This document shows, piece after piece, positions 4,605 through 9,517 of a stretch of 9,994 nt of DNA. Position 1 is the first letter of the stretch; each line of letters begins with the position of its first letter. Both the position numbers and the translations under genes were made by a program. The notes under the pieces were generated by a model. The model was not told the DNA's origin. It did no database searches and saw nothing but the letters and a program-made list of their open reading frames with translations. The DNA comes from a virus (Duplodnaviria > Heunggongvirae > Uroviricota > Caudoviricetes): IMG/VR virus record IMGVR_UViG_2541047778_000017; one strand, given 5' to 3'.

Positions 4605-5297
4605 TTAATTGTGTCGCTTAAGGGTCTGTGACTGACTGATTAAGACCTTTCCAAAGACCATAAACCGGTGTTCGTTTTCGCTGGTAATTCCCCATTCACG
4701 GTAAATCTGGTTATCAGAAATTACCAGTAGTTTGTCAGGTATCATTTGCAGTCGTTTGACATAAATTTTATCATCAAAACCAAACACATAGATACCATCC
4801 CCATCAAACTGATTGATACTGATATCAACGAAGATGAGATCTCCTGGCTCAATGGTTGGACACATACTGTCCCCACGAACGTTGATAACTTTAATGTGAT
4901 TGGCTGGTCGTCCTCCAAACATCGATACAGCATTATCAGTTATGTATTCAATGGCATGAATCACATCAATGACATCACCGCCCTGGATAAGGCCATTTCC
5001 CGCACTGACACTGACATCCAGCATTTCAATACGGAATACATCCTTCACCTGCGCAACATCCTCACCAGTACTGTTTTTACATACAGTATTACTTTTGAAG
5101 TCTGAGGTAAAGAGATCTGCAATATCAACACCTAAGCTCCTGGCAATATTACTCAGGGCTTGTTCAGTGAATTGTTTCTGCTTACCTGTTTCCAGGCGTG
5201 AGATATTCGCCGCATCCACTCCTATTGCTTCAGCGAGATCGGCGATTTTCATGTTCTTCGCCTGGCGAAGTTGTCTGACTCGATTTCCTATGCTCAT
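4605..5297 (-). CDS. phage repressor, cI/LexA-like: N-terminal HTH plus C-terminal S24 autopeptidase domain (230 aa)
   Basis: N-terminal HTH (VRQLRQAKNMKIADLAEAIGVDAANISRLETGKQ) and C-terminal S24 signatures (VRGDSMCPTI with the Ser nucleophile; IYVKRL with the Lys general base). Divergent from a cro-like gene across a 97-bp operator region. Confidence 0.9.
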   Translation of the reverse strand: MSIGNRVRQLRQAKNMKIADLAEAIGVDAANISRLETGKQKQFTEQALSNIARSLGVDIADLFTSDFKSNTVCKNSTGEDVAQVKDVFRIEMLDVSVSAGNGLIQGGDVIDVIHAIEYITDNAVSMFGGRPANHIKVINVRGDSMCPTIEPGDLIFVDISINQFDGDGIYVFGFDDKIYVKRLQMIPDKLLVISDNQIYREWGITSENEHRFMVFGKVLISQSQTLKRHN

Positions 5298-5394: not shown

Positions 5395-5655
5395 ATGCAA
5401 TCACCATTACGAAATGTGCGTAAGGCGCACGGATTTACTTTGCAGCATGTTGCTGCGGGTGTTCAGGTTAATCCAGCGACGCTGAGTCGTATTGAAAGAC
5501 TGGAACAAATTCCATCTATCGATCTTGCAGAACGTCTGGCCAATTTTTTTAAGGGTGAAATCAGCGAAATGCAGATTCTTTATCCGGCACGTTTTCAATC
5601 TAGCCAAAACCAGAATGGGTTTAAACCACAGGAACAGGAGGTAAGCCGTGGGTAA
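5395..5655 (+). CDS. Cro-like XRE-family HTH regulator (86 aa)
   Basis: HTH motif FTLQHVAAGVQVNPATLSRIERLEQIPS; GGAGG 4 nt upstream of ATG 5395; divergent from the repressor. Its 3' end overlaps the start of the next gene. Confidence 0.8.
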   Translation: MQSPLRNVRKAHGFTLQHVAAGVQVNPATLSRIERLEQIPSIDLAERLANFFKGEISEMQILYPARFQSSQNQNGFKPQEQEVSRG

Positions 5656-6205
5656 GCATCACTGGAAAGTGGAAAAACAACCTGAGTGGTACGTGAAAGC
5701 TGTCAGAAAAACTATCGCGGCATTGCCTGGGGGTTACGCTGAAGCTGCTGACTGGCTGGATGTAACAGAGAACGCTTTATTCAACCGCCTTCGTGCAGAT
5801 GGCGATCAGATTTTCCCGCTGGGATGGGCAATGATTTTGCAACGTGCTGGTGGAACTCACTTCATTGCTGACGCTGTGGCGCAGTCTGCAAATGGCGTCT
5901 TTGTGTCTCTTCCTGACGTCGAGGATGTGGACAACGCCGATATTAACCAGCGCCTGCTGGAAGTCATCGAACAGATCGGGAGTTACTCAAAGCAGATTCG
6001 TTCGGCAATCGAAGATGGGGTAGTGGAGCCACACGAGCAGACAGCAATTAATGATGAGTTGTATCTGTCAATTTCGAAGCTCCAGGAGCATGCAGCACTG
6101 GTCTACAAAATCTTCTGCGCTCCAGAAAAGAGTAACGCCCGCGAGTGTGCAGCTCCGGGCGTCGTGGCGTCGATTGCTTCTGGTTGTGGAGAAACTAACG
6201 CATGA
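5648..6205 (+). CDS. CII-like phage regulatory protein (phage 186 CII / CP76-type), 185 aa
   Basis: GTG start at 5648 with AGGAGG at 5636-5641 (6-nt spacing), overlapping the cro-like stop at 5653-5655. Position immediately after cro and overall sequence character recall the CP76-type CII family; this assignment is from memory only. Confidence 0.55.
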   Translation: MGKHHWKVEKQPEWYVKAVRKTIAALPGGYAEAADWLDVTENALFNRLRADGDQIFPLGWAMILQRAGGTHFIADAVAQSANGVFVSLPDVEDVDNADINQRLLEVIEQIGSYSKQIRSAIEDGVVEPHEQTAINDELYLSISKLQEHAALVYKIFCAPEKSNARECAAPGVVASIASGCGETNA

Positions 6206-6350
6206 ACAGTTTAACGGCAAATAACCGTTTGTCGCAACAGCTGGTGGTCAGCGTCGCTGAACACCTGTTGTTACGGCATGAATGCAGATTACCAAATCAC
6301 CTGGCTGTAAGTAACCACAGAGAACTTTACCTGACTGTGGGGGGCGAGTT

Positions 6351-6530
6351 GTGCAGGAACTTAACCGCTGGTTTCGTGACGGAAGAGGGCTTTATGTCCA
6401 TGTTATTCGTTGGGAGCCAGAAACACAGCGCGTTATCTATCTTCGCAAAGACTACCCGCATGAGTGCTTTAGTCCTTTGTGGAAATTCAGGCGTGATTTT
6501 GTTGAGTGTGAAGGACCACCAGCATATTGA
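6351..6530 (+). CDS. candidate small protein, 59 aa (VQELNRWFRDGRGLYVHVIRWEPETQRVIYLRKDYPHECFSPLWKFRRDFVECEGPPAY), GTG start
   Basis: Not in the ORF track. Alternate frame inside the long 6202..7353 ORF, bounded by TAA 6312-6314 and TGA 6528-6530. Its composition is protein-like (W, Y, mixed charge), unlike the overlapping long frame. G-rich stretch 6338-6343 could serve as an SD; a LexA-box-like palindrome lies 31 nt upstream. Confidence 0.3.
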   Translation: MQELNRWFRDGRGLYVHVIRWEPETQRVIYLRKDYPHECFSPLWKFRRDFVECEGPPAY

Positions 6531-6807
6531 TTCTGCAATTCCGGGACGTTACACTGCTCAGGCACCTTATAAAGCGGGTGCCGGGCGTGGAAACCCGAAA
6601 TTCAATATAGAGCACAACCGCGCTCATGCGGTTTTTTCGTGTCATGAGCATCGTTACGCCCAAATTATGGTGGGGCGTGCAGGGCCAACTTCGGTTGGGC
6701 CGGGTTCTATGTTGACCGGTATTTCCACCCCTGTACGTCTCACCACCTATATGGTCGTGGAAAGCCTTGGTGGTGAGTTCATTGAATTCAACATAGGGGC
6801 TGTCACC

Positions 6808-7353
6808 ATGACTACTCTCCCAACCCAATCTCACCCTGAAATCACGATTATCAATGGTCGCGTTGTTACCACATCTTTTGCAGTAGCTAATTACTTTACT
6901 AAACGGCATGAGCGGGTTTTAGATAGAATTAGAAACCTCGAATGTTCCGCTGAATTTACTGAACACAATTTTGTGTTAAGTGAATACACCGACGCATCAG
7001 GCCGCAAACTCCCTTGTTACCAAATCACCCGCGACGGTTTTGCGTTTCTTGCCATGGGCTTCACTGGTAAACGTGCTGCCCGGTTCAAAGAGGCATACAT
7101 AAATGCCTTTAACCAGATGGAAAAACTGCTTTCAAAGCCATCCACGCTGAGCGATGCCGCAGATAACGCCAGCGTGCTTTACTCCCACCTGTCGGTAATC
7201 CACAAGGTCTGGCTGCAGCAGCTTTATCCCATGTTGGCAAAAGCCGAATCCCCGCTGGCTGTAAGTCTGTATGACCGCATCAACGACGCGGCGCTACTGG
7301 CCAGTCTCATAAATTTGTCGCTGAACCCTTCAGAGGTAAGGGGGCGCAAATGA
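6808..7353 (+). CDS. Rha-family phage regulatory protein (181 aa from ATG 6808; the frame is open upstream to ATG 6202)
   Basis: MTTLPTQSHPEITIINGRVVTTSFAVANYFTKRHERVLDRIRNLECS...YQITRDGFAFLAMGFTGKRAARFKEAYINAFNQME matches my recollection of the Phage_pRha domain, which is normally N-terminal. AGGGG lies 8 nt upstream of ATG 6808. The 202 in-frame codons upstream are His/Ser/Arg/Gly-rich and poor in Asp/Lys, which argues against their being coding, although the ATG at 6202 overlaps the cII-like stop (ATGA). Confidence 0.65.
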   Translation: MTTLPTQSHPEITIINGRVVTTSFAVANYFTKRHERVLDRIRNLECSAEFTEHNFVLSEYTDASGRKLPCYQITRDGFAFLAMGFTGKRAARFKEAYINAFNQMEKLLSKPSTLSDAADNASVLYSHLSVIHKVWLQQLYPMLAKAESPLAVSLYDRINDAALLASLINLSLNPSEVRGRK

Positions 7354-7574
7354 TCCGGAATATTTTCAAACGGTTTACCAATCATACTTTCCGTTGTCCT
7401 CGTCCGGGTCAGTGGTACACCACGCCTGCAGGGCATGTTCTACGTGTTAGCCTGGTTGACCGTGAATGTCAGAAGGTGGTTTGTGAACCGCTGGGCCGTA
7501 ATTACCGCGTCAGTATGCCGCTTATAGCCTTTTGCTCCGGAAAAATGTTTAAGCGTCTGGGAGGTGTGGCGTGA
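7350..7574 (+). CDS. small hypothetical protein (74 aa)
   Basis: ATG 7350 overlaps the Rha stop (ATGA) with a G-rich SD (AGGTAAGGGGG) upstream; its stop overlaps the next GTG start (GTGA). No family recognised. Confidence 0.5.
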   Translation: MIRNIFKRFTNHTFRCPRPGQWYTTPAGHVLRVSLVDRECQKVVCEPLGRNYRVSMPLIAFCSGKMFKRLGGVA

Positions 7575-7870
7575 ACTGTTTTCAGTTTGTGTGCGGATGT
7601 GCTTTCGATAACCCGATTCAGCGCCTGATTATGTTGCGTGTTTTGATGTCGGGTTCTTCAGACGGTGAAGGCGAGAGAGTTATTGATCATCAGGTGCTTG
7701 CTGATTTCTGCTGTTGTTCTAAGCAAGCGATATTCAGGGAAACCCTGGCACTGGAAAGAGCTGGTTATCTTCATATCCGAAAAATTGCAACGCTTACTAT
7801 TGATGCAAAAGCCAGACTACAACCTGCGCGTGGCTACACAATTCTCATGCTGCGGAAGGAGGTTGTATGA
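7571..7870 (+). CDS. hypothetical protein (99 aa), possibly winged-helix
   Basis: GTG 7571 with GGAGG 7 nt upstream; stop TGA 7868-7870 overlaps the ATG of the replication gene (ATGA). The segment VLADFCCCSKQAIFRETLALERAGYLHIRK resembles a DNA-binding helix pair. Confidence 0.5.
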   Translation: MNCFQFVCGCAFDNPIQRLIMLRVLMSGSSDGEGERVIDHQVLADFCCCSKQAIFRETLALERAGYLHIRKIATLTIDAKARLQPARGYTILMLRKEVV

Positions 7871-8862
7871 GCCGTTACGCCCCCACACCGGAAGTTATGG
7901 CTATTGGTCAAATTAATATTTCCGGCAATGTTACACCTGCGACCTGGTGGAAATATATTCGACTACCCAGTGGGCGTCCGGATGCGACGGCTATCGCTCT
8001 GCTTTCAGAGATCGTTTACTGGTACCGCCCGACAGAGGTCAGGGATGAGCACACCGGAGCGTTGCTGGGATATCGCAAGCGTTTTCAGGGCGACAAACTG
8101 CAAAGAAGCTACCAGGCGTTTGCTGAGCAGTTTGGTTTCGGGAAAAGGGAAACCGCAGATGCGCTGAAGCGTCTGCGCGATGCAGGGTTTATTACTCTGG
8201 ATTTACGCACGGTGGAAATGCTCGATGGGGTGAAATGCAGCAATATTTTGTTTGTCGGGATCAACCCACAGGCAATTGCGGCCATCACCACACCTTCTTC
8301 TGTTTCGCCAGAAAGTAACAGCAATAATGCAATCAGCGATACAGCTATTACGTTAAAACGGAACACCCCCCGACGTCATAACGGAACAGGGGATACGCCG
8401 AATGTTGATACAAATACAGAGATTACTACAGAGATTACTACAGAGATTACAACGGAGACTAAAAACACTATTGGCGCATCCGCTGACGCGTCTGCACCAG
8501 CGCGTTCTGCCAGACAGGAATATTCACCGGAATTTGAACAGGCCTGGCAGGAATATCCCAAACGTGCTGGTGGTAATTCAAAATCCGCCGCTTTTAAAGC
8601 CTGGAAAGCCCGAATCAGGGAAGGTGTGACACCCGAAACCATGCTCGACGGTGTGAAACGCTATGCCGCCTGGGTGCGTGTCTCTGGAAATACCGGTACC
8701 CAGTTCGTGAAGCAGGCGTCGACGTTCTTTGGTCCGGATCGTCATTTCGAAGAATCCTGGGAAGTTCCTGCGGTATCTGCAGTCAGACGCGAGGACCCGT
8801 ACTTCAAAGCCAGTTACGACAACGTGGACTACAGCCAGATCCCGGCAGGATTCAGGGGGTGA
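7867..8862 (+). CDS. phage replication initiation / replisome-organizer protein (O-like N-terminal DNA-binding domain, DnaD-like C-terminal domain), 331 aa
   Basis: Perfect AGGAGG 4 nt upstream of ATG 7867. N-terminal winged-helix-like region (ALKRLRDAGFITLDLRT), a low-complexity linker encoded by tandem repeats (NTEITTEITTEITTETK), and a C-terminal EFEQAWQEYPKRAGG...KAWKARI...FFGPDRHFEESWE block that matches the pattern F..W..YP.K......A...W of DnaD-like/replisome-organizer C-terminal domains as I recall it. Confidence 0.7.
   Translation: MSRYAPTPEVMAIGQINISGNVTPATWWKYIRLPSGRPDATAIALLSEIVYWYRPTEVRDEHTGALLGYRKRFQGDKLQRSYQAFAEQFGFGKRETADALKRLRDAGFITLDLRTVEMLDGVKCSNILFVGINPQAIAAITTPSSVSPESNSNNAISDTAITLKRNTPRRHNGTGDTPNVDTNTEITTEITTEITTETKNTIGASADASAPARSARQEYSPEFEQAWQEYPKRAGGNSKSAAFKAWKARIREGVTPETMLDGVKRYAAWVRVSGNTGTQFVKQASTFFGPDRHFEESWEVPAVSAVRREDPYFKASYDNVDYSQIPAGFRG
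8416..8460. repeat. tandem 12-bp repeat (ACAGAGATTACT, about 3.75 copies) inside the replication initiator gene; candidate origin iterons
   Basis: ACAGAGATTACT at 8416-8427 and 8428-8439, ACAGAGATTACA at 8440-8451, partial ACGGAGACT at 8452-8460. A separate 9-bp direct repeat AACGGAACA occurs at 8356-8364 and 8379-8387, just upstream. Confidence 0.8.
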
Positions 8863-8864
8863 GC

Positions 8865-9194
8865 ATGAGTCTTTTGAATGACGTTCAGAAATTCATTGAA
8901 GCCCATCCGGGGTGTACTTCCGGAGACATTGCGGATGCTTTTGCTGGTTACTCACGGCAGCGCGTTCTGCAGTCAGCAAGCAAGTTACGTCAGAGTGGGC
9001 GTGTGGCTCACCGTTGTGAAGGAGATACACGCAGACATTTCCCACGCCTGACTGAGAGAGCGCAGGATCCGGAACCACAACCAGTTCGTGAAACCAGACC
9101 TGTGCGCAATTTCTATGTCGGCACTAACGACCCGCGGGTGATTTTGTGCCTGACCCGCCAGGCGGAAAAACTGGTCAGGGAGATGGCGGCATGA
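8865..9194 (+). CDS. hypothetical protein (109 aa from ATG 8865; alternative GTG at 8859 overlaps the upstream stop)
   Basis: GGGGG at 8855-8859 lies 5 nt upstream of ATG 8865; its stop TGA 9192-9194 overlaps the next ATG (ATGA). N-terminal region (FIEAHPGCTSGDIADAFAGYSRQRVLQSASKLRQSGRV) looks winged-helix-like. No family recognised. Confidence 0.5.
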   Translation: MSLLNDVQKFIEAHPGCTSGDIADAFAGYSRQRVLQSASKLRQSGRVAHRCEGDTRRHFPRLTERAQDPEPQPVRETRPVRNFYVGTNDPRVILCLTRQAEKLVREMAA

Positions 9195-9517
9195 CGACGT
9201 TAACTCAATGCCAGCAGCAGGTGCTGGATATGCTGATTTCTTATCAGAAAGAACGTGGCTTCCCGCCAACCAATCAGGAGGTGGCAACCATGCTGGGATA
9301 CCGTTCAGTGAATGCAGCGGTGGAGCATCTTCGCGCACTGGAGAAAAAAGGCGTCATCACGATAAAGCGTGGCGTGGCCCGGGGCATCACGCTTCATACC
9401 GCGGTGAAGGACGACGACAGCGAGGCGGTCGGGATTATCCGCTCACTGCTTGCCGGTGAGGAAAACGCAAGGCTGCGTGCAACCCACTGGTTACATGAGA
9501 GGGGCCTGAAAGTATGA
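9191..9517 (+). CDS. LexA N-terminal DNA-binding-domain protein lacking the S24 peptidase domain (108 aa)
   Basis: MTTLTQCQQQVLDMLISYQKERGFPPTNQEVATMLGYRSVNAAVEHLRALEKKGVITIKRGVARGITL aligns by eye with the E. coli LexA N-terminus (LT.RQQEV...I......G.PPT..EIA..LG.RS.NAA.EHL.AL.RKGVI......SRGI.L). No Ser/Lys peptidase motifs follow. GGAG 7-10 nt upstream of ATG 9191. Confidence 0.7.
   Translation: MTTLTQCQQQVLDMLISYQKERGFPPTNQEVATMLGYRSVNAAVEHLRALEKKGVITIKRGVARGITLHTAVKDDDSEAVGIIRSLLAGEENARLRATHWLHERGLKV

What the first reader, a model, noticed from the sequence alone, without database searches (positions are those of the whole stretch)
6206..6807. Enigmatic 600-bp interval between the cII-like and Rha genes: coding status unclear
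An ATG at 6202 overlaps the cII-like stop, as at every other gene junction in this operon, and that frame stays open into Rha to give a 383-aa ORF. However, the first 202 codons are rich in His, Ser, Arg and Gly and poor in Asp and Lys, which looks like non-coding sequence. An alternate frame holds a protein-like 59-aa ORF (6351..6530). The interval also has GC-rich hairpins (GGCACC/GGTGCC at 6561-6582; GCTCATG/CATGAGC at 6622-6649; a UUCG-looped stem at 6682-6701). It could be a Rha protein with a novel N-terminal extension, a frameshifted gene remnant, a small host-takeover gene (compare fil and dhr after cII in phage 186) or a structured RNA.
Basis: seen in the sequence. Interest (0 to 1): 0.5.

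Follow-up and report, generated by a model that had tools for sequence, protein, structure and literature searches.

The report
Two small RNAs guarding an antirepressor
The puzzling 600 bases are not a new part of the Rha protein: they hold a small conserved prophage gene and two already-known regulatory RNAs (IsrK and C4) that lock translation of the Rha gene, an arrangement that is common in E. coli prophages.

Summary
ATG 6202 overlaps the stop of the cII-like gene (ymfL), and a 383-codon frame runs into rha (chance about 3e-5). However, the 600 bp are not a Rha domain.

They hold four things:
- The start of a ymfM-like gene (6202 to about 6350). Embedded in another frame is a conserved 59-aa DUF4222 gene (6351-6530).
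- A conserved promoter and the IsrK sRNA with its terminator (6562-6638).
- A C4-type antisense RNA (6663-6750).
- A leader with two sites that pair with C4: b2 (6757-6763) and a2 (6788-6799, overlapping the rha Shine-Dalgarno).

In 48 distinct related modules, the C4 loops, their mimics in IsrK and the leader targets co-vary three ways (11 a' and 7 b' specificities). This is one more copy of a known antirepressor lock, the Gifsy-1 isrK-orf45-anrP and P1 c4-icd-ant type. Sequences similar to it occur in about 40% of complete E. coli genomes.

Unexpectedly, the long frame is stop-free in 172 of 173 modules. It is entered through ATGA-overlapping start codons, which suggests that ribosomes traverse the RNA genes.

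The locus is ordinary in kind, with two testable side leads.

The parts
5648..6205 (+). ymfL (cII/CP76-like regulator). Upstream gene whose stop overlaps ATG 6202.
   Evidence: Pfam Phage_CP76 E=2e-13. NCBIfam phage_reg_YmfL equivalog, 168 bits.
6202..6350 (+). N-terminal ~50 codons of a ymfM-like gene, in the frame of the long ORF. It starts in an ATGA overlap with ymfL.
   Evidence: Same start as e14 ymfM. BLASTP 1e-15 to the YmfM of L235. In 22 diverse loci the N-terminal 55 codons show a coding signature: codon-position entropy 0.36/0.30/0.61, and 0 stops against 4.0 and 2.7 in the other frames.
6339..6344 (+). GGGGGG, the likely Shine-Dalgarno for the DUF4222 gene.
   Evidence: A purine-rich box 6-12 nt upstream of the start is conserved in 36 distinct junction sequences, mostly GGAGG/GGAG followed by ATG.
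6351..6530 (+). DUF4222 gene: 59 aa, GTG start. It lies in a different frame from the long ORF and is embedded in the ymfM-like ORF.
   Evidence: Pfam PF13973 E=9e-14. Annotated as a CDS in RefSeq E. coli. Codon-position entropy 0.71/0.61/1.30 over 37 unique homologues from about 15 genera. AlphaFold2 model pLDDT 85, a small beta-barrel.
6527..6555 (+). PisrK promoter: -35 TTGATT (6527-6532), 17-nt spacer, -10 TACACT (6550-6555), start near G6562.
   Evidence: Positions -37 to -4 are at least 90% conserved in 45 unique upstream segments, while sequence further upstream depends on the context. The left edge of the module is the -35 box. It matches 8 of 12 consensus positions, so the simple scan missed it. 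A promoter upstream of isrK was shown experimentally in Gifsy-1 (PMC4825925).
6562..6638 (+). IsrK sRNA. It carries b1 (GUGGAAA, 6587-6593), a1 (UCAAUAUAGAGC, 6602-6613) and an intrinsic terminator (stem 6616-6633 plus a U run).
   Evidence: Rfam RF01394, 61.6 bits against a gathering score of 50. Terminator scan. b':b1 and a':a1 covariation. c4-a1b1 RF03163 gives a sub-threshold match at 6549-6601.
6663..6750 (+). C4-type antisense RNA. It has a 17-bp closing stem, a UUCG hairpin, a second hairpin whose loop is a' (6704-6715), and a single-stranded b' (6722-6728).
   Evidence: Rfam RF01695, 82.4 bits against a gathering score of 45. MFE fold identical to the family structure, -44.5 kcal/mol. 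Compensatory changes occur in 4 pairs of the closing stem and 4 of 5 pairs of hairpin 1.
6667..6669 (+). AUG inside the 5' strand of the C4 stem. It is the equivalent of orf45 AUG1 of Gifsy-1 and is in frame with rha.
   Evidence: In Gifsy-1 this AUG opens the 45-codon orf45, which ends in an ATGA overlap with anrP (PMC4825925). It is in frame with the downstream gene's ATG, with no stop between, in 172 of 173 modules.
6757..6763 (+). b2 target (GUGGAAA) of the C4 b' segment, followed by an anti-Shine-Dalgarno stretch (GCCUU).
   Evidence: RNAduplex -9.1 kcal/mol. A 7/7 match to the cognate b' in 47 of 48 distinct modules, across 7 b' types. Leader hairpin analysis.
6788..6799 (+). a2 target (UCAACAUAGGGG) of the C4 a' loop. 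It overlaps the rha Shine-Dalgarno GGGG (6796-6799).
   Evidence: RNAduplex -12.1 kcal/mol. In the a':a2 helix, 7 of 12 pairs change on both sides and 94% of cells are paired. Slid controls for the whole structure tested in that call gave 36-44%.
6808..7353 (+). rha (Rha-family regulator, antirepressor-like). This is the gene controlled by the module.
   Evidence: Pfam Phage_pRha E=8e-31 on residues 21-106 counted from ATG 6808. TIGR02681, 100 bits. All 15 Rha-relative loci scanned carry isrK and C4 at the same distance upstream.
6202..7353 (+). The 383-codon frame that links ymfM-like, isrK, C4, the leader and rha. It is kept stop-free but is not conserved as a protein.
   Evidence: Annotated in databases as 'Rha family' or 'ash family protein'.

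Best explanation
The interval is a composite of two overlapping small genes and an RNA-based lock on the rha gene. It is not a Rha domain.

Anatomy:
1. 6202-6530 is the counterpart of e14 ymfM. A YmfM-like N-terminal domain is read in the long frame. A conserved 59-aa DUF4222 gene with its own start is embedded in another frame.
2. A constitutive-type promoter (6527-6555) makes the 77-nt IsrK sRNA, which ends at its own terminator.
3. Transcripts that read through that terminator, or that come from the early operon upstream, contain the C4-type RNA (6663-6750).
4. The C4 loop a' and linker b' pair with a2 and b2 in the leader. The a2 site covers the rha Shine-Dalgarno.

How it most likely works:
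- As in P1 c4-icd-ant, C4 pairing blocks rha translation.
- The leader also folds on itself so that an anti-Shine-Dalgarno stretch next to b2 pairs with the Shine-Dalgarno.
- IsrK carries mimics of both targets (a1, b1). It can therefore bind the C4 sequence and relieve the block, as shown for Gifsy-1 IsrK, which activates anrP translation about 140-fold.
- The a and b sequences set an immunity specificity that differs between prophages.
- The long open frame exists because ribosomes must be able to run from upstream (from AUG 6667, or from ymfM) to the rha start to open the leader. This is translational coupling.

Shown here: the identity and structure of the RNAs, the three-way covariation, promoter conservation, the coding frames and stop-codon avoidance.

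Inferred: processing of C4, repression, the decoy or activator role of IsrK, the antirepressor role of Rha, and actual translation of the long frame.
For: RNA genes:
- Rfam hits above the gathering scores: C4 82.4 vs 45, isrK 61.6 vs 50.
- The same pair lies upstream of rha in 15 of 15 relatives tested.
- C4 stems carry compensatory changes.

Three-way covariation over 48 distinct modules:
- a':a2: 7 of 12 pairs change on both sides, 94% of cells paired.
- a':a1: 8 of 12 pairs, 91% paired.
- b':b1: 6 of 7 pairs, 97% paired.
- Slid controls for the whole structures tested in those two calls: 33-46%.
- b2 matches its cognate b' 7/7 in 47 of 48 modules.
- There are 11 a' types and 7 b' types, in 21 combinations.
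- Cognate duplex energy is -26.0 kcal/mol, against -15.5 for fully heterologous pairs.

Regulatory geometry:
- a2 overlaps the Shine-Dalgarno.
- The promoter is conserved from -37 to -4 in 39 different upstream contexts.
- The terminator is present.
- The leader hairpin sequesters the Shine-Dalgarno in 39 of 39 unique leaders (mean z -3.2).

Homology of layout with Gifsy-1 isrK-orf45-anrP:
- The C4 AUG is orf45 AUG1.
- The genetics are in PMC4825925.

Coding frames:
- DUF4222: Pfam hit plus third-position variability.
- YmfM N-terminal domain.

Stop avoidance:
- No stop in the gene frame in any of 48 distinct modules.
- The two other frames have 12+12 distinct stop sites between the C4 AUG and the gene ATG, and 7+7 in isrK plus the spacer.
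- 172 of 173 modules are in frame and open.
- ATGA-coupled entry into that frame is seen in several independent contexts.
Against: - There are no expression data for this locus.
- C4 processing and repression are taken from P1 and P7. The IsrK effect is taken from Gifsy-1, where the authors explain it by a structural switch in the cis mRNA rather than by titration of a free C4 RNA. In that study, extra STnc1160 did not counteract IsrK.
- The Rfam c4-a1b1 model scores only 23.6 bits here, against a gathering score of 46.7.
- The exact leader hairpin of the window is not supported by covariation in its register: 67% paired against 58% for a one-column slide.
- Rha is not homologous to P1 Ant. 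Its antirepressor role rests on Gifsy-1 AnrP and on database names.
- In Gifsy-1 the frame is closed two codons upstream of the C4 AUG, so openness through isrK is not universal.
- The sampled modules are close relatives (all share a 24-nt isrK 5' end or a Rha at least 77% identical), so the stop-site counts are not fully independent.
Confidence: 0.8

Rival explanations
1. The 383-aa ORF encodes a genuine Rha protein whose N-terminal 202 residues form a functional domain.
For: - The frame is open far beyond chance.
- It is open in nearly all relatives.
- RefSeq annotates it as a Rha family protein.
- More than 1000 database proteins share the N-terminal stretch.
- Pfam Phage_ASH matches it.
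Against: - Residues 117-194 are the translation of isrK and C4. Their variation follows RNA pairing, not codons.
- Residues 51-109 overlap DUF4222, where the other frame carries the coding signature. In the long frame the second codon position is the most variable.
- The same N-terminal stretch is fused to unrelated 77-aa, 120-aa and 181-187-aa genes.
- rha has its own conserved Shine-Dalgarno and ATG.
- In Gifsy-1 the upstream ORF is out of frame with the gene and ends at its start.
Confidence: 0.05
2. The RNA module is as described, but the continuity of the long frame is a neutral by-product of recent common ancestry and RNA constraints. The interval is not translated in vivo, apart from DUF4222 and perhaps a short ymfM product.
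For: - The modules sampled are closely related.
- a1 and a2 are near-copies lying 186 nt (62 codons) apart, so they are in the same phase. Stop-free a2 sequences therefore give stop-free a1 sequences.
- In Gifsy-1 a TGA closes the frame just upstream of the C4 AUG.
Against: - There are 24 and 14 distinct stop sites in the other two plus-strand frames, and none in the gene frame.
- On the minus strand, only 9 of 48 variants have any stop-free frame.
- All indels between module types are multiples of 3, except in the one broken copy, L056.
- The frame is entered by ATGA overlaps with the preceding gene at -360, -81 and -54 in different contexts.
- Translation of orf45 is required for anrP expression in Gifsy-1.
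Confidence: 0.3
3. The main regulator is IsrK acting as an activator through a structural switch of the read-through mRNA (the Gifsy-1 model). The C4-like RNA would be only a processing by-product with no repressor role.
For: - In the Gifsy-1 genetics, IsrK in trans raises anrP translation about 140-fold.
- Mutations in the IsrK/orf45 pairing behave as predicted.
- Constitutive STnc1160 did not counteract IsrK.
Against: - The a2 and b2 targets in the leader co-vary with the C4 loops as tightly as a1 and b1 do. A pure IsrK:orf45 model does not need this.
- The C4 fold is conserved with compensatory changes and matches the P1/P7 family.
- a2 overlaps the Shine-Dalgarno.
Confidence: 0.25
4. The interval is a frameshifted or decayed gene remnant.
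For: The odd amino-acid composition of the long frame.
Against: - Every segment is accounted for by conserved, intact elements.
- The region is 92-99% identical in hundreds of E. coli genomes and in inducible phages such as mEp460 and Stx phages.
Confidence: 0.02

Closest known systems
Gifsy-1 isrK-orf45(STnc1160)-anrP locus of Salmonella (Hershko-Shalev et al. 2016, PMC4825925)
   Same: - Same order and spacing: promoter, IsrK with terminator, C4-like RNA whose 5' AUG opens an ORF, leader, antirepressor-like gene.
- Both RNAs hit the same Rfam families in both loci.
- The same a/b complementarities are present.
   Different: - Here the module sits in the early right operon after ymfL/ymfM, not after the late antiterminator gene antQ.
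- The ORF from the C4 AUG is fused in frame to the gene (141 nt) instead of ending in ATGA out of frame (about 134 nt).
- The frame is also open upstream through isrK.
- No isrJ was found downstream.
- The a' specificity is different.
immI region of phages P1 and P7 (c4-icd-ant; Citron and Schuster 1990, cited from PMC12197685 and from my own knowledge)
   Same: - An antisense RNA of the same Rfam family, cut from the same transcript as its target.
- Two short recognition elements a' and b'.
- Targets upstream (a1, b1) and downstream (a2, b2), with the downstream set at the ribosome binding site.
- Specificity differences give heteroimmunity.
- Translational coupling through an upstream ORF.
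   Different: - a1 and b1 are packaged here into a separately terminated sRNA (IsrK).
- The regulated gene is a Rha-family protein, not Ant.
- The leader ORF starts inside C4 rather than after a2/b2.
- No Icd homologue was identified here.
P4 immunity (seqA-CI RNA-seqC) and N15 cB/antA (from PMC4825925's discussion and my own knowledge)
   Same: A processed small RNA with two flanking complementary sites on the same transcript. IsrK was called a structural homologue of seqA.
   Different: Those systems act by premature transcription termination. Here the target overlaps a Shine-Dalgarno sequence, which points to translational control.
e14 ymfL-ymfM (sfiC) of E. coli K-12
   Same: - Same ymfL gene.
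- The same ATGA-coupled start of the next ORF.
- The same embedded DUF4222 ORF.
   Different: - In e14 the ymfM frame stops about 20 nt before the DUF4222 stop.
- In e14 the next gene follows at once, and there is no isrK-C4-rha module.

Membership tests
C4 antisense RNA (Rfam RF01695; P1/P7 c4 type) | Covariance-model score above the family's gathering threshold | tested here: met
   82.4 bits against 45, full length 1-87, at 6663-6750 (+).
C4 antisense RNA (Rfam RF01695; P1/P7 c4 type) | Fold: long closing stem enclosing two hairpins, supported by compensatory changes | tested here: met
   The MFE fold equals the family structure. Closing stem: 4 pairs change on both sides, 99.9% paired. Hairpin 1: 4 of 5 pairs change on both sides, 100% paired.
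C4 antisense RNA (Rfam RF01695; P1/P7 c4 type) | Two exposed elements (a', b') complementary to a2/b2 at the ribosome binding site of the downstream gene | tested here: met
   a' 6704-6715 pairs with 6788-6799, which overlaps the Shine-Dalgarno GGGG. b' 6722-6728 pairs with 6757-6763. Covariation over 11 a' and 7 b' types.
C4 antisense RNA (Rfam RF01695; P1/P7 c4 type) | A second set of targets (a1, b1) upstream on the same transcription unit | tested here: met
   a1 6602-6613 and b1 6587-6593 lie inside IsrK. a':a1 changes on both sides in 8 of 12 pairs, and b':b1 in 6 of 7.
C4 antisense RNA (Rfam RF01695; P1/P7 c4 type) | Processing from a precursor (RNase P) to a ~77-nt RNA that represses antirepressor synthesis | not testable with these tools
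   Needs RNA mapping and reporter assays. A processed ~80-nt STnc1160 was seen in Gifsy-1.
IsrK sRNA (Rfam RF01394) | Covariance-model score above the gathering threshold, with an intrinsic terminator | tested here: met
   61.6 bits against 50, at 6562-6638. Terminator stem 6616-6633 plus a T run.
IsrK sRNA (Rfam RF01394) | Own promoter directly upstream | tested here: met
   -35 TTGATT, 17 nt, -10 TACACT. It is conserved from -37 to -4 in 39 different upstream contexts. Only 8 of 12 consensus matches. Activity was not measured.
IsrK sRNA (Rfam RF01394) | Followed by a short ORF (orf45) translationally coupled to an antirepressor-like gene | tested here: inconclusive
   The orf45 AUG is conserved (6667), but here the ORF is fused in frame to rha instead of ending at its start.
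IsrK sRNA (Rfam RF01394) | Hfq binding and trans-activation of the downstream gene | not testable with these tools
   Experimental properties, known only for Salmonella (PMC4825925).
c4-a1b1 motif (Rfam RF03163) | Covariance-model score above the gathering threshold | tested here: not met
   23.6 bits against 46.7, E=0.0013, at 6549-6601. Gifsy-1 scores 48.1. The function (a1/b1 sites) is nevertheless present.
DUF4222 (Pfam PF13973) | Profile match above the gathering score, and evidence that this frame is the coding one | tested here: met
   51.1 bits against 27. Third-position entropy is about twice that of positions 1 and 2 in 37 homologues. Own Shine-Dalgarno and start are conserved. Confident fold prediction.
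Rha family (Pfam PF09669 / TIGR02681) | The Rha domain starts right after ATG 6808 and needs no upstream residues | tested here: met
   The domain covers residues 21-106 of the 181-aa product. TIGR02681 covers residues 13-110.
YmfM / SfiC (e14 cell-division inhibitor) | Homologous ORF starting in an ATGA overlap with ymfL, of about 110 aa, ending near the next gene | tested here: inconclusive
   The start and N-terminal domain are homologous. The usual stop is missing, so the frame runs on into rha. Division inhibition was not tested.
Phage_ASH (Pfam PF10554) | Profile match above the gathering score | tested here: met
   31.5 bits against 26 on residues 117-194. The matched stretch is the conceptual translation of isrK plus C4 (6550-6783), so membership says nothing about protein function.

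The most novel reading that the evidence does not exclude
The long frame is a selected translational bridge.

- In operon transcripts, ribosomes handed over by ATGA coupling from the upstream gene (here ymfL to ymfM) would translate straight through the IsrK terminator, the C4 gene and the a2/b2 leader.
- This would override both the terminator and the antisense and hairpin lock.
- Rha would then be made (alone or as a fusion) only once the early operon is on. Transcripts from PisrK, which are untranslated up to +106, would end as IsrK or yield C4 and keep rha shut in the lysogen.

A second novel reading concerns the embedded DUF4222 protein. It, rather than the annotated YmfM polypeptide, may be the real SfiC-type division inhibitor.
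Probability: 0.3. Interest if true: 0.65.

Novelty: new member of a known kind. Interest (0 to 1): 0.4.

Why it matters
- Annotation. Thousands of enterobacterial prophage records label this stretch as a 'Rha', 'ash family', 'peptidase' or 'Icd-like' protein and omit two RNA genes and, often, the DUF4222 gene. Pfam PF10554 largely models a translated RNA region.
- Biology. The 11 a' and 7 b' recognition types, and the tandem modules with different types, point to an RNA-coded immunity and cross-talk code for antirepressors among co-resident prophages, including Stx phages. That bears on prophage induction and toxin release.
- Side lead 1. An ORF kept open across two sRNA genes, if really translated, would be an unusual way to make a terminator and an antisense lock conditional on upstream translation.
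- Side lead 2. The ymfM/DUF4222 overlap reopens which product is SfiC, and a two-mutant experiment could settle it.

Tried and rejected
- Leader hairpin of the window tested for covariation in its own register: not supported (67% paired against 58% for a one-column slide). Every leader does fold into a hairpin that sequesters the Shine-Dalgarno when folded on its own.
- Programmed -1 frameshift joining the YmfM N-terminus to DUF4222: rejected. There is no conserved slippery heptamer, DUF4222 has its own conserved Shine-Dalgarno and ATG, and a stop often lies just upstream in its frame.
- Minus-strand 140-aa ORF 6487-6909: no Pfam hit, and open in only 9 of 48 module variants. Spurious.
- Other RNA families in 6150-6900 at E up to 1: none besides C4, isrK and a weak c4-a1b1 match.
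- NCBIfam: no model for YmfM, DUF4222 or the isrK-C4 translation.
- Foldseek of the DUF4222 model against the PDB: only weak SH3/KOW/Tudor-like resemblances (best E=0.05), so no functional inference.
- The generic sigma-70 scan found no promoter in the interval. The promoter was recognised only through conservation.
- Longest-run complementarity gave noisy cognate against non-cognate tables, because constant flanks pair with the GGAGG box. Column-wise pair counts and duplex energies were used instead.
- The first paper searches failed on terms that were too short.
Full report
**Setting**

The window is the immunity and early region of a lambdoid E. coli-type prophage. Its genes, in order:
- An S24-peptidase/HTH repressor, 4605-5297 on the minus strand.
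- A Cro-like HTH gene, 5395-5655.
- ymfL (CII/CP76-like), 5648-6205.
- The interval in question.
- rha, 6808-7353.
- A chain of genes whose starts overlap the preceding stops.

An 801-nt query (6100-6900) spanning the interval matches 2173 of 5426 complete E. coli genomes and 76 phage records, including mEp460, cdtI, ST64B and many Stx phages.

**Observation**

- ATG 6202 overlaps the ymfL stop (ATGA), and the frame is open to 7353, giving 383 aa.
- Shuffles of the 603 nt give P = 3e-5 for a stop-free frame. The other two frames carry 13 and 9 stops.
- His and Gly are enriched and Asp and Lys are depleted. Ser and Arg are not enriched.

**What the right half is**

Rfam places two families above their curated thresholds on the plus strand: isrK at 6562-6638 (61.6 bits against 50) and C4 antisense RNA at 6663-6750 (82.4 bits against 45).
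- IsrK ends in a terminator, stem 6616-6633 plus a T run.
- The C4 segment folds alone into exactly the family structure, -44.5 kcal/mol.
- I fetched 80 viral contigs encoding Rha relatives (77-99% identical). All 15 that I scanned with Rfam carry isrK and C4 at the same distance upstream of the gene. Four of them (L012, L034, L059, L062) carry two tandem copies of the module.
Some have two or three modules spaced 656-869 nt apart.

**Pairing and specificity**

Aligning the distinct modules showed hypervariable patches that change together.
- In the window, the C4 hairpin-2 loop (a', 6704-6715, GUUCUAUGUUGA) is complementary to two sites. One is 6788-6799 in the leader (a2, UCAACAUAGGGG), whose last four bases are the rha Shine-Dalgarno, 8 nt before ATG 6808. 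The other is 6602-6613 inside IsrK (a1).
- The single-stranded C4 linker (b', 6722-6728, UUUCCAC) is complementary to GUGGAAA at 6757-6763 (b2) and at 6587-6593 in the loop of IsrK hairpin 2 (b1).
- Duplex energies run from -9 to -15 kcal/mol per site.

Counts over 48 distinct modules, which hold 11 a' types and 7 b' types in 21 combinations:

| Helix | Pairs changed on both sides | Cells paired |
|---|---|---|
| a':a2 | 7 of 12 | 94% |
| a':a1 | 8 of 12 | 91% |
| b':b1 | 6 of 7 | 97% |

- When the 3' partners are slid by 1-3 columns, the whole structures tested in those two calls (one search also included the RNAs' own helices) fall to 33-46% paired.
- b2 matches its own b' over 7 of 7 bases in 47 of 48 modules.
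- Summed duplex energy is -26.0 kcal/mol for cognate pairs, against -15.5 when both elements differ.
- One module (L017) is a recombinant whose IsrK no longer matches its C4.
- The C4 closing stem and first hairpin also show compensatory changes.

**Promoter**

The 34 nt from -37 to -4 relative to G6562 are at least 90% conserved in 45 unique upstream segments drawn from 39 different genomic contexts. Conservation stops exactly at the -35 hexamer. The elements are -35 TTGATT (6527-6532), a 17-nt spacer and -10 TACACT (6550-6555). The simple consensus scan missed it because it matches only 8 of 12 positions.

**Comparison with known systems**

In Gifsy-1, the region between antQ and anrP holds isrK, a C4 match and the Rfam c4-a1b1 motif.
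- The published orf45 is the ORF that starts at the AUG in the C4 5' strand (AUUAUGG). It runs 45 codons and ends in an ATGA overlap with anrP. That AUG is 6667 in the window.
- Hershko-Shalev et al. (PMC4825925) reported five relevant results. The isrK promoter drives anrP transcription by terminator read-through. The mRNA is translationally silent. IsrK in trans activates anrP translation about 140-fold through pairing with the orf45 region. orf45 translation is required. An ~80-nt RNA (STnc1160) is processed from the read-through transcript.
- They likened the layout to P4 seqA-CI-seqC.
- P1 and P7 c4 RNA blocks the ribosome binding site of the ant operon and sets heteroimmunity (PMC12197685).
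- The co-occurrence of isrK and C4 next to BRO, Rha or Ant genes was noted in APSE phages (PMC7313666).

The window's module is therefore a further member of a described kind.

**The leader**

All 39 unique leaders fold into a hairpin in which a stretch next to b2 (GCCUU, CUCC or UUCC) pairs with the Shine-Dalgarno. The mean z-score is -3.2, and the Shine-Dalgarno is 83% paired. The rha ribosome binding site is thus shut even without C4, which fits the silent Gifsy-1 fusion. The window's exact register is not confirmed by covariation, so I treat this hairpin as likely but not established.

**The left half**

ATG 6202 is the start of ymfM in E. coli K-12 e14, with the same ATGA overlap with ymfL.
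- The 59-aa ORF is Pfam DUF4222 (E=9e-14). Some RefSeq genomes annotate it. e14 has it too, with a TTG start and an AAGGAG box. There it overlaps the 3' 160 nt of the annotated ymfM in another frame and runs 20 nt past the ymfM stop.
- In 40 loci from about 15 enterobacterial genera, the DUF4222 frame shows the classic signature. Codon-position entropy is 0.71, 0.61 and 1.30. A conserved Shine-Dalgarno and start are present. The AlphaFold2 model is a confident small beta-barrel (pLDDT 85), without a significant PDB neighbour.
- The N-terminal 55 codons of YmfM are also truly coding. Entropy is 0.36, 0.30 and 0.61, with no stops against 4.0 and 2.7 in the other frames. The window's first ~50 codons are a diverged homologue.
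- The C-terminal half of YmfM, which overlaps DUF4222, is not conserved as protein. Yet it has no stop in any of 37 unique sequences, where 0.9-2.0 are expected.
- In e14-like loci this frame ends about 20 nt before the DUF4222 stop. In the window type and in Citrobacter L204 that stop is absent and the frame runs on.

**The long frame**

- In 172 of 173 parsed modules, the C4 AUG is in frame with the downstream gene's ATG (138 or 141 nt apart) with no stop between.
- Over the 48 distinct modules, the two other frames show 12+12 distinct stop sites between the C4 AUG and the gene ATG, and 7+7 in isrK plus the spacer. The gene frame shows none.
- The minus strand has a stop-free frame in only 9 of 48 variants.
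- Indels between module types are multiples of three, except in one damaged copy.
- In several independent contexts the frame begins at an ATG in an ATGA overlap with the stop of the preceding gene. The positions are -360 (ymfL), -81 (after a 181-aa rha) and -54 (after 120-aa Rha-like genes, with a GGGAGG box).
- The same N-terminal stretch is joined to unrelated downstream genes of 77, 120 and 181-187 aa. The polypeptide is therefore not a conserved domain, but its translatability appears to be selected.
- The part downstream of 6667 is explained by the coupling shown in Gifsy-1. The part through isrK is not explained by published work. In Gifsy-1 that part is closed by a TGA.
- My inference is that, in this fully overlap-coupled early operon, an open frame lets ribosomes cross the inserted RNA module. 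This would avoid polarity and might override the IsrK terminator and the lock. That is the novel case, at about 30%.

**Database consequences**

- Pfam Phage_ASH matches residues 117-194 of the long frame, which is nt 6550-6783, the translation of isrK plus C4.
- More than 1000 database proteins with this stretch are called 'ash family protein', 'Rha family', 'peptidase' or 'Icd-like'.
- Phage records leave both RNAs unannotated.

**Verdict**

- The finding resolves into known elements: a ymfM/DUF4222 gene pair and an isrK-C4 lock on rha.
- It is a new member of a known kind and is very common.
- Two side observations deserve a bench test: the selected open frame across two sRNA genes, and the possibility that DUF4222 rather than YmfM is SfiC. 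The published ymfM experiments cloned or deleted both frames together.

Noticed in passing
window 6550-6783 (frame of the long ORF): Pfam PF10554 (Phage_ASH) matches the conceptual translation of the isrK and C4 RNA genes. More than 1000 database proteins named 'ash family protein', 'peptidase' or 'Icd-like' are this ORF, so the family largely models a translated RNA region.
   Followed up: partly
L203 (E. coli K-12 e14) 4823-5181; window 6202-6530: The annotated cell-division inhibitor gene ymfM (sfiC) overlaps a better-conserved DUF4222 gene in another frame, with its own Shine-Dalgarno and start. 160 of its 180 nt lie inside ymfM. The published pBAD-ymfM and delta-ymfM experiments do not separate the two, so the active product is open. 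No paper in the library links DUF4222 to YmfM.
   Followed up: partly
L098:9643-11209, L085:6535-7450, L119:4702-5612, L166:10222-11132: Tandem arrays of two or three complete isrK-C4-gene modules (spacing 656 nt with 120-aa Rha-like genes, 863-869 nt with full rha). Each copy has a different a'/b' specificity.
   Followed up: partly
L017:587-841: A recombinant module. IsrK carries the window-type a1 (UCAAUAUAG), but C4 and the leader carry the CUUUGGUGA/UCACCAAAG type, so IsrK no longer matches its own C4 at the a site.
   Followed up: no
Four core pairs are conserved across module types, with one U-A to G-C swap (65% paired against 25-47% in slid controls). It may be an alternative structure of read-through transcripts.
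   Followed up: partly
window 6751-6814 and the leaders of 39 related modules: Each leader folds so that a stretch beside b2 pairs with the Shine-Dalgarno of the downstream gene (mean z -3.2). The window's own register is not backed by covariation.
   Followed up: partly
window 6487-6909 (-): A 140-aa minus-strand ORF antisense to isrK and C4. It has no Pfam hit, and a stop-free minus-strand frame exists in only 9 of 48 module variants, so it is spurious.
   Followed up: yes
window 8415-8458: A 12-bp tandem repeat (TACAGAGATTAC, 3.7 copies) inside the 331-aa ORF 7867-8862, giving TEITTEITTEITTE. It may be iterons of a replication origin within an O-like gene. The ORF has no Pfam hit.
   Followed up: no
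window 9188-9517: A 109-aa protein consisting only of a LexA DNA-binding domain, with no peptidase domain. It is encoded in the early operon of a prophage whose main repressor (4605-5297, minus strand) has an S24 self-cleavage domain.
   Followed up: no
window 7350-7380 and L012 about 2170-2215: The first ~10 codons of the 74-aa ORF that follows rha (MIRNIFK...) recur after the first rha of tandem arrays. There they run in frame into the next isrK promoter and module. This suggests that the junction after rha is a recombination point for module duplication.
   Followed up: no
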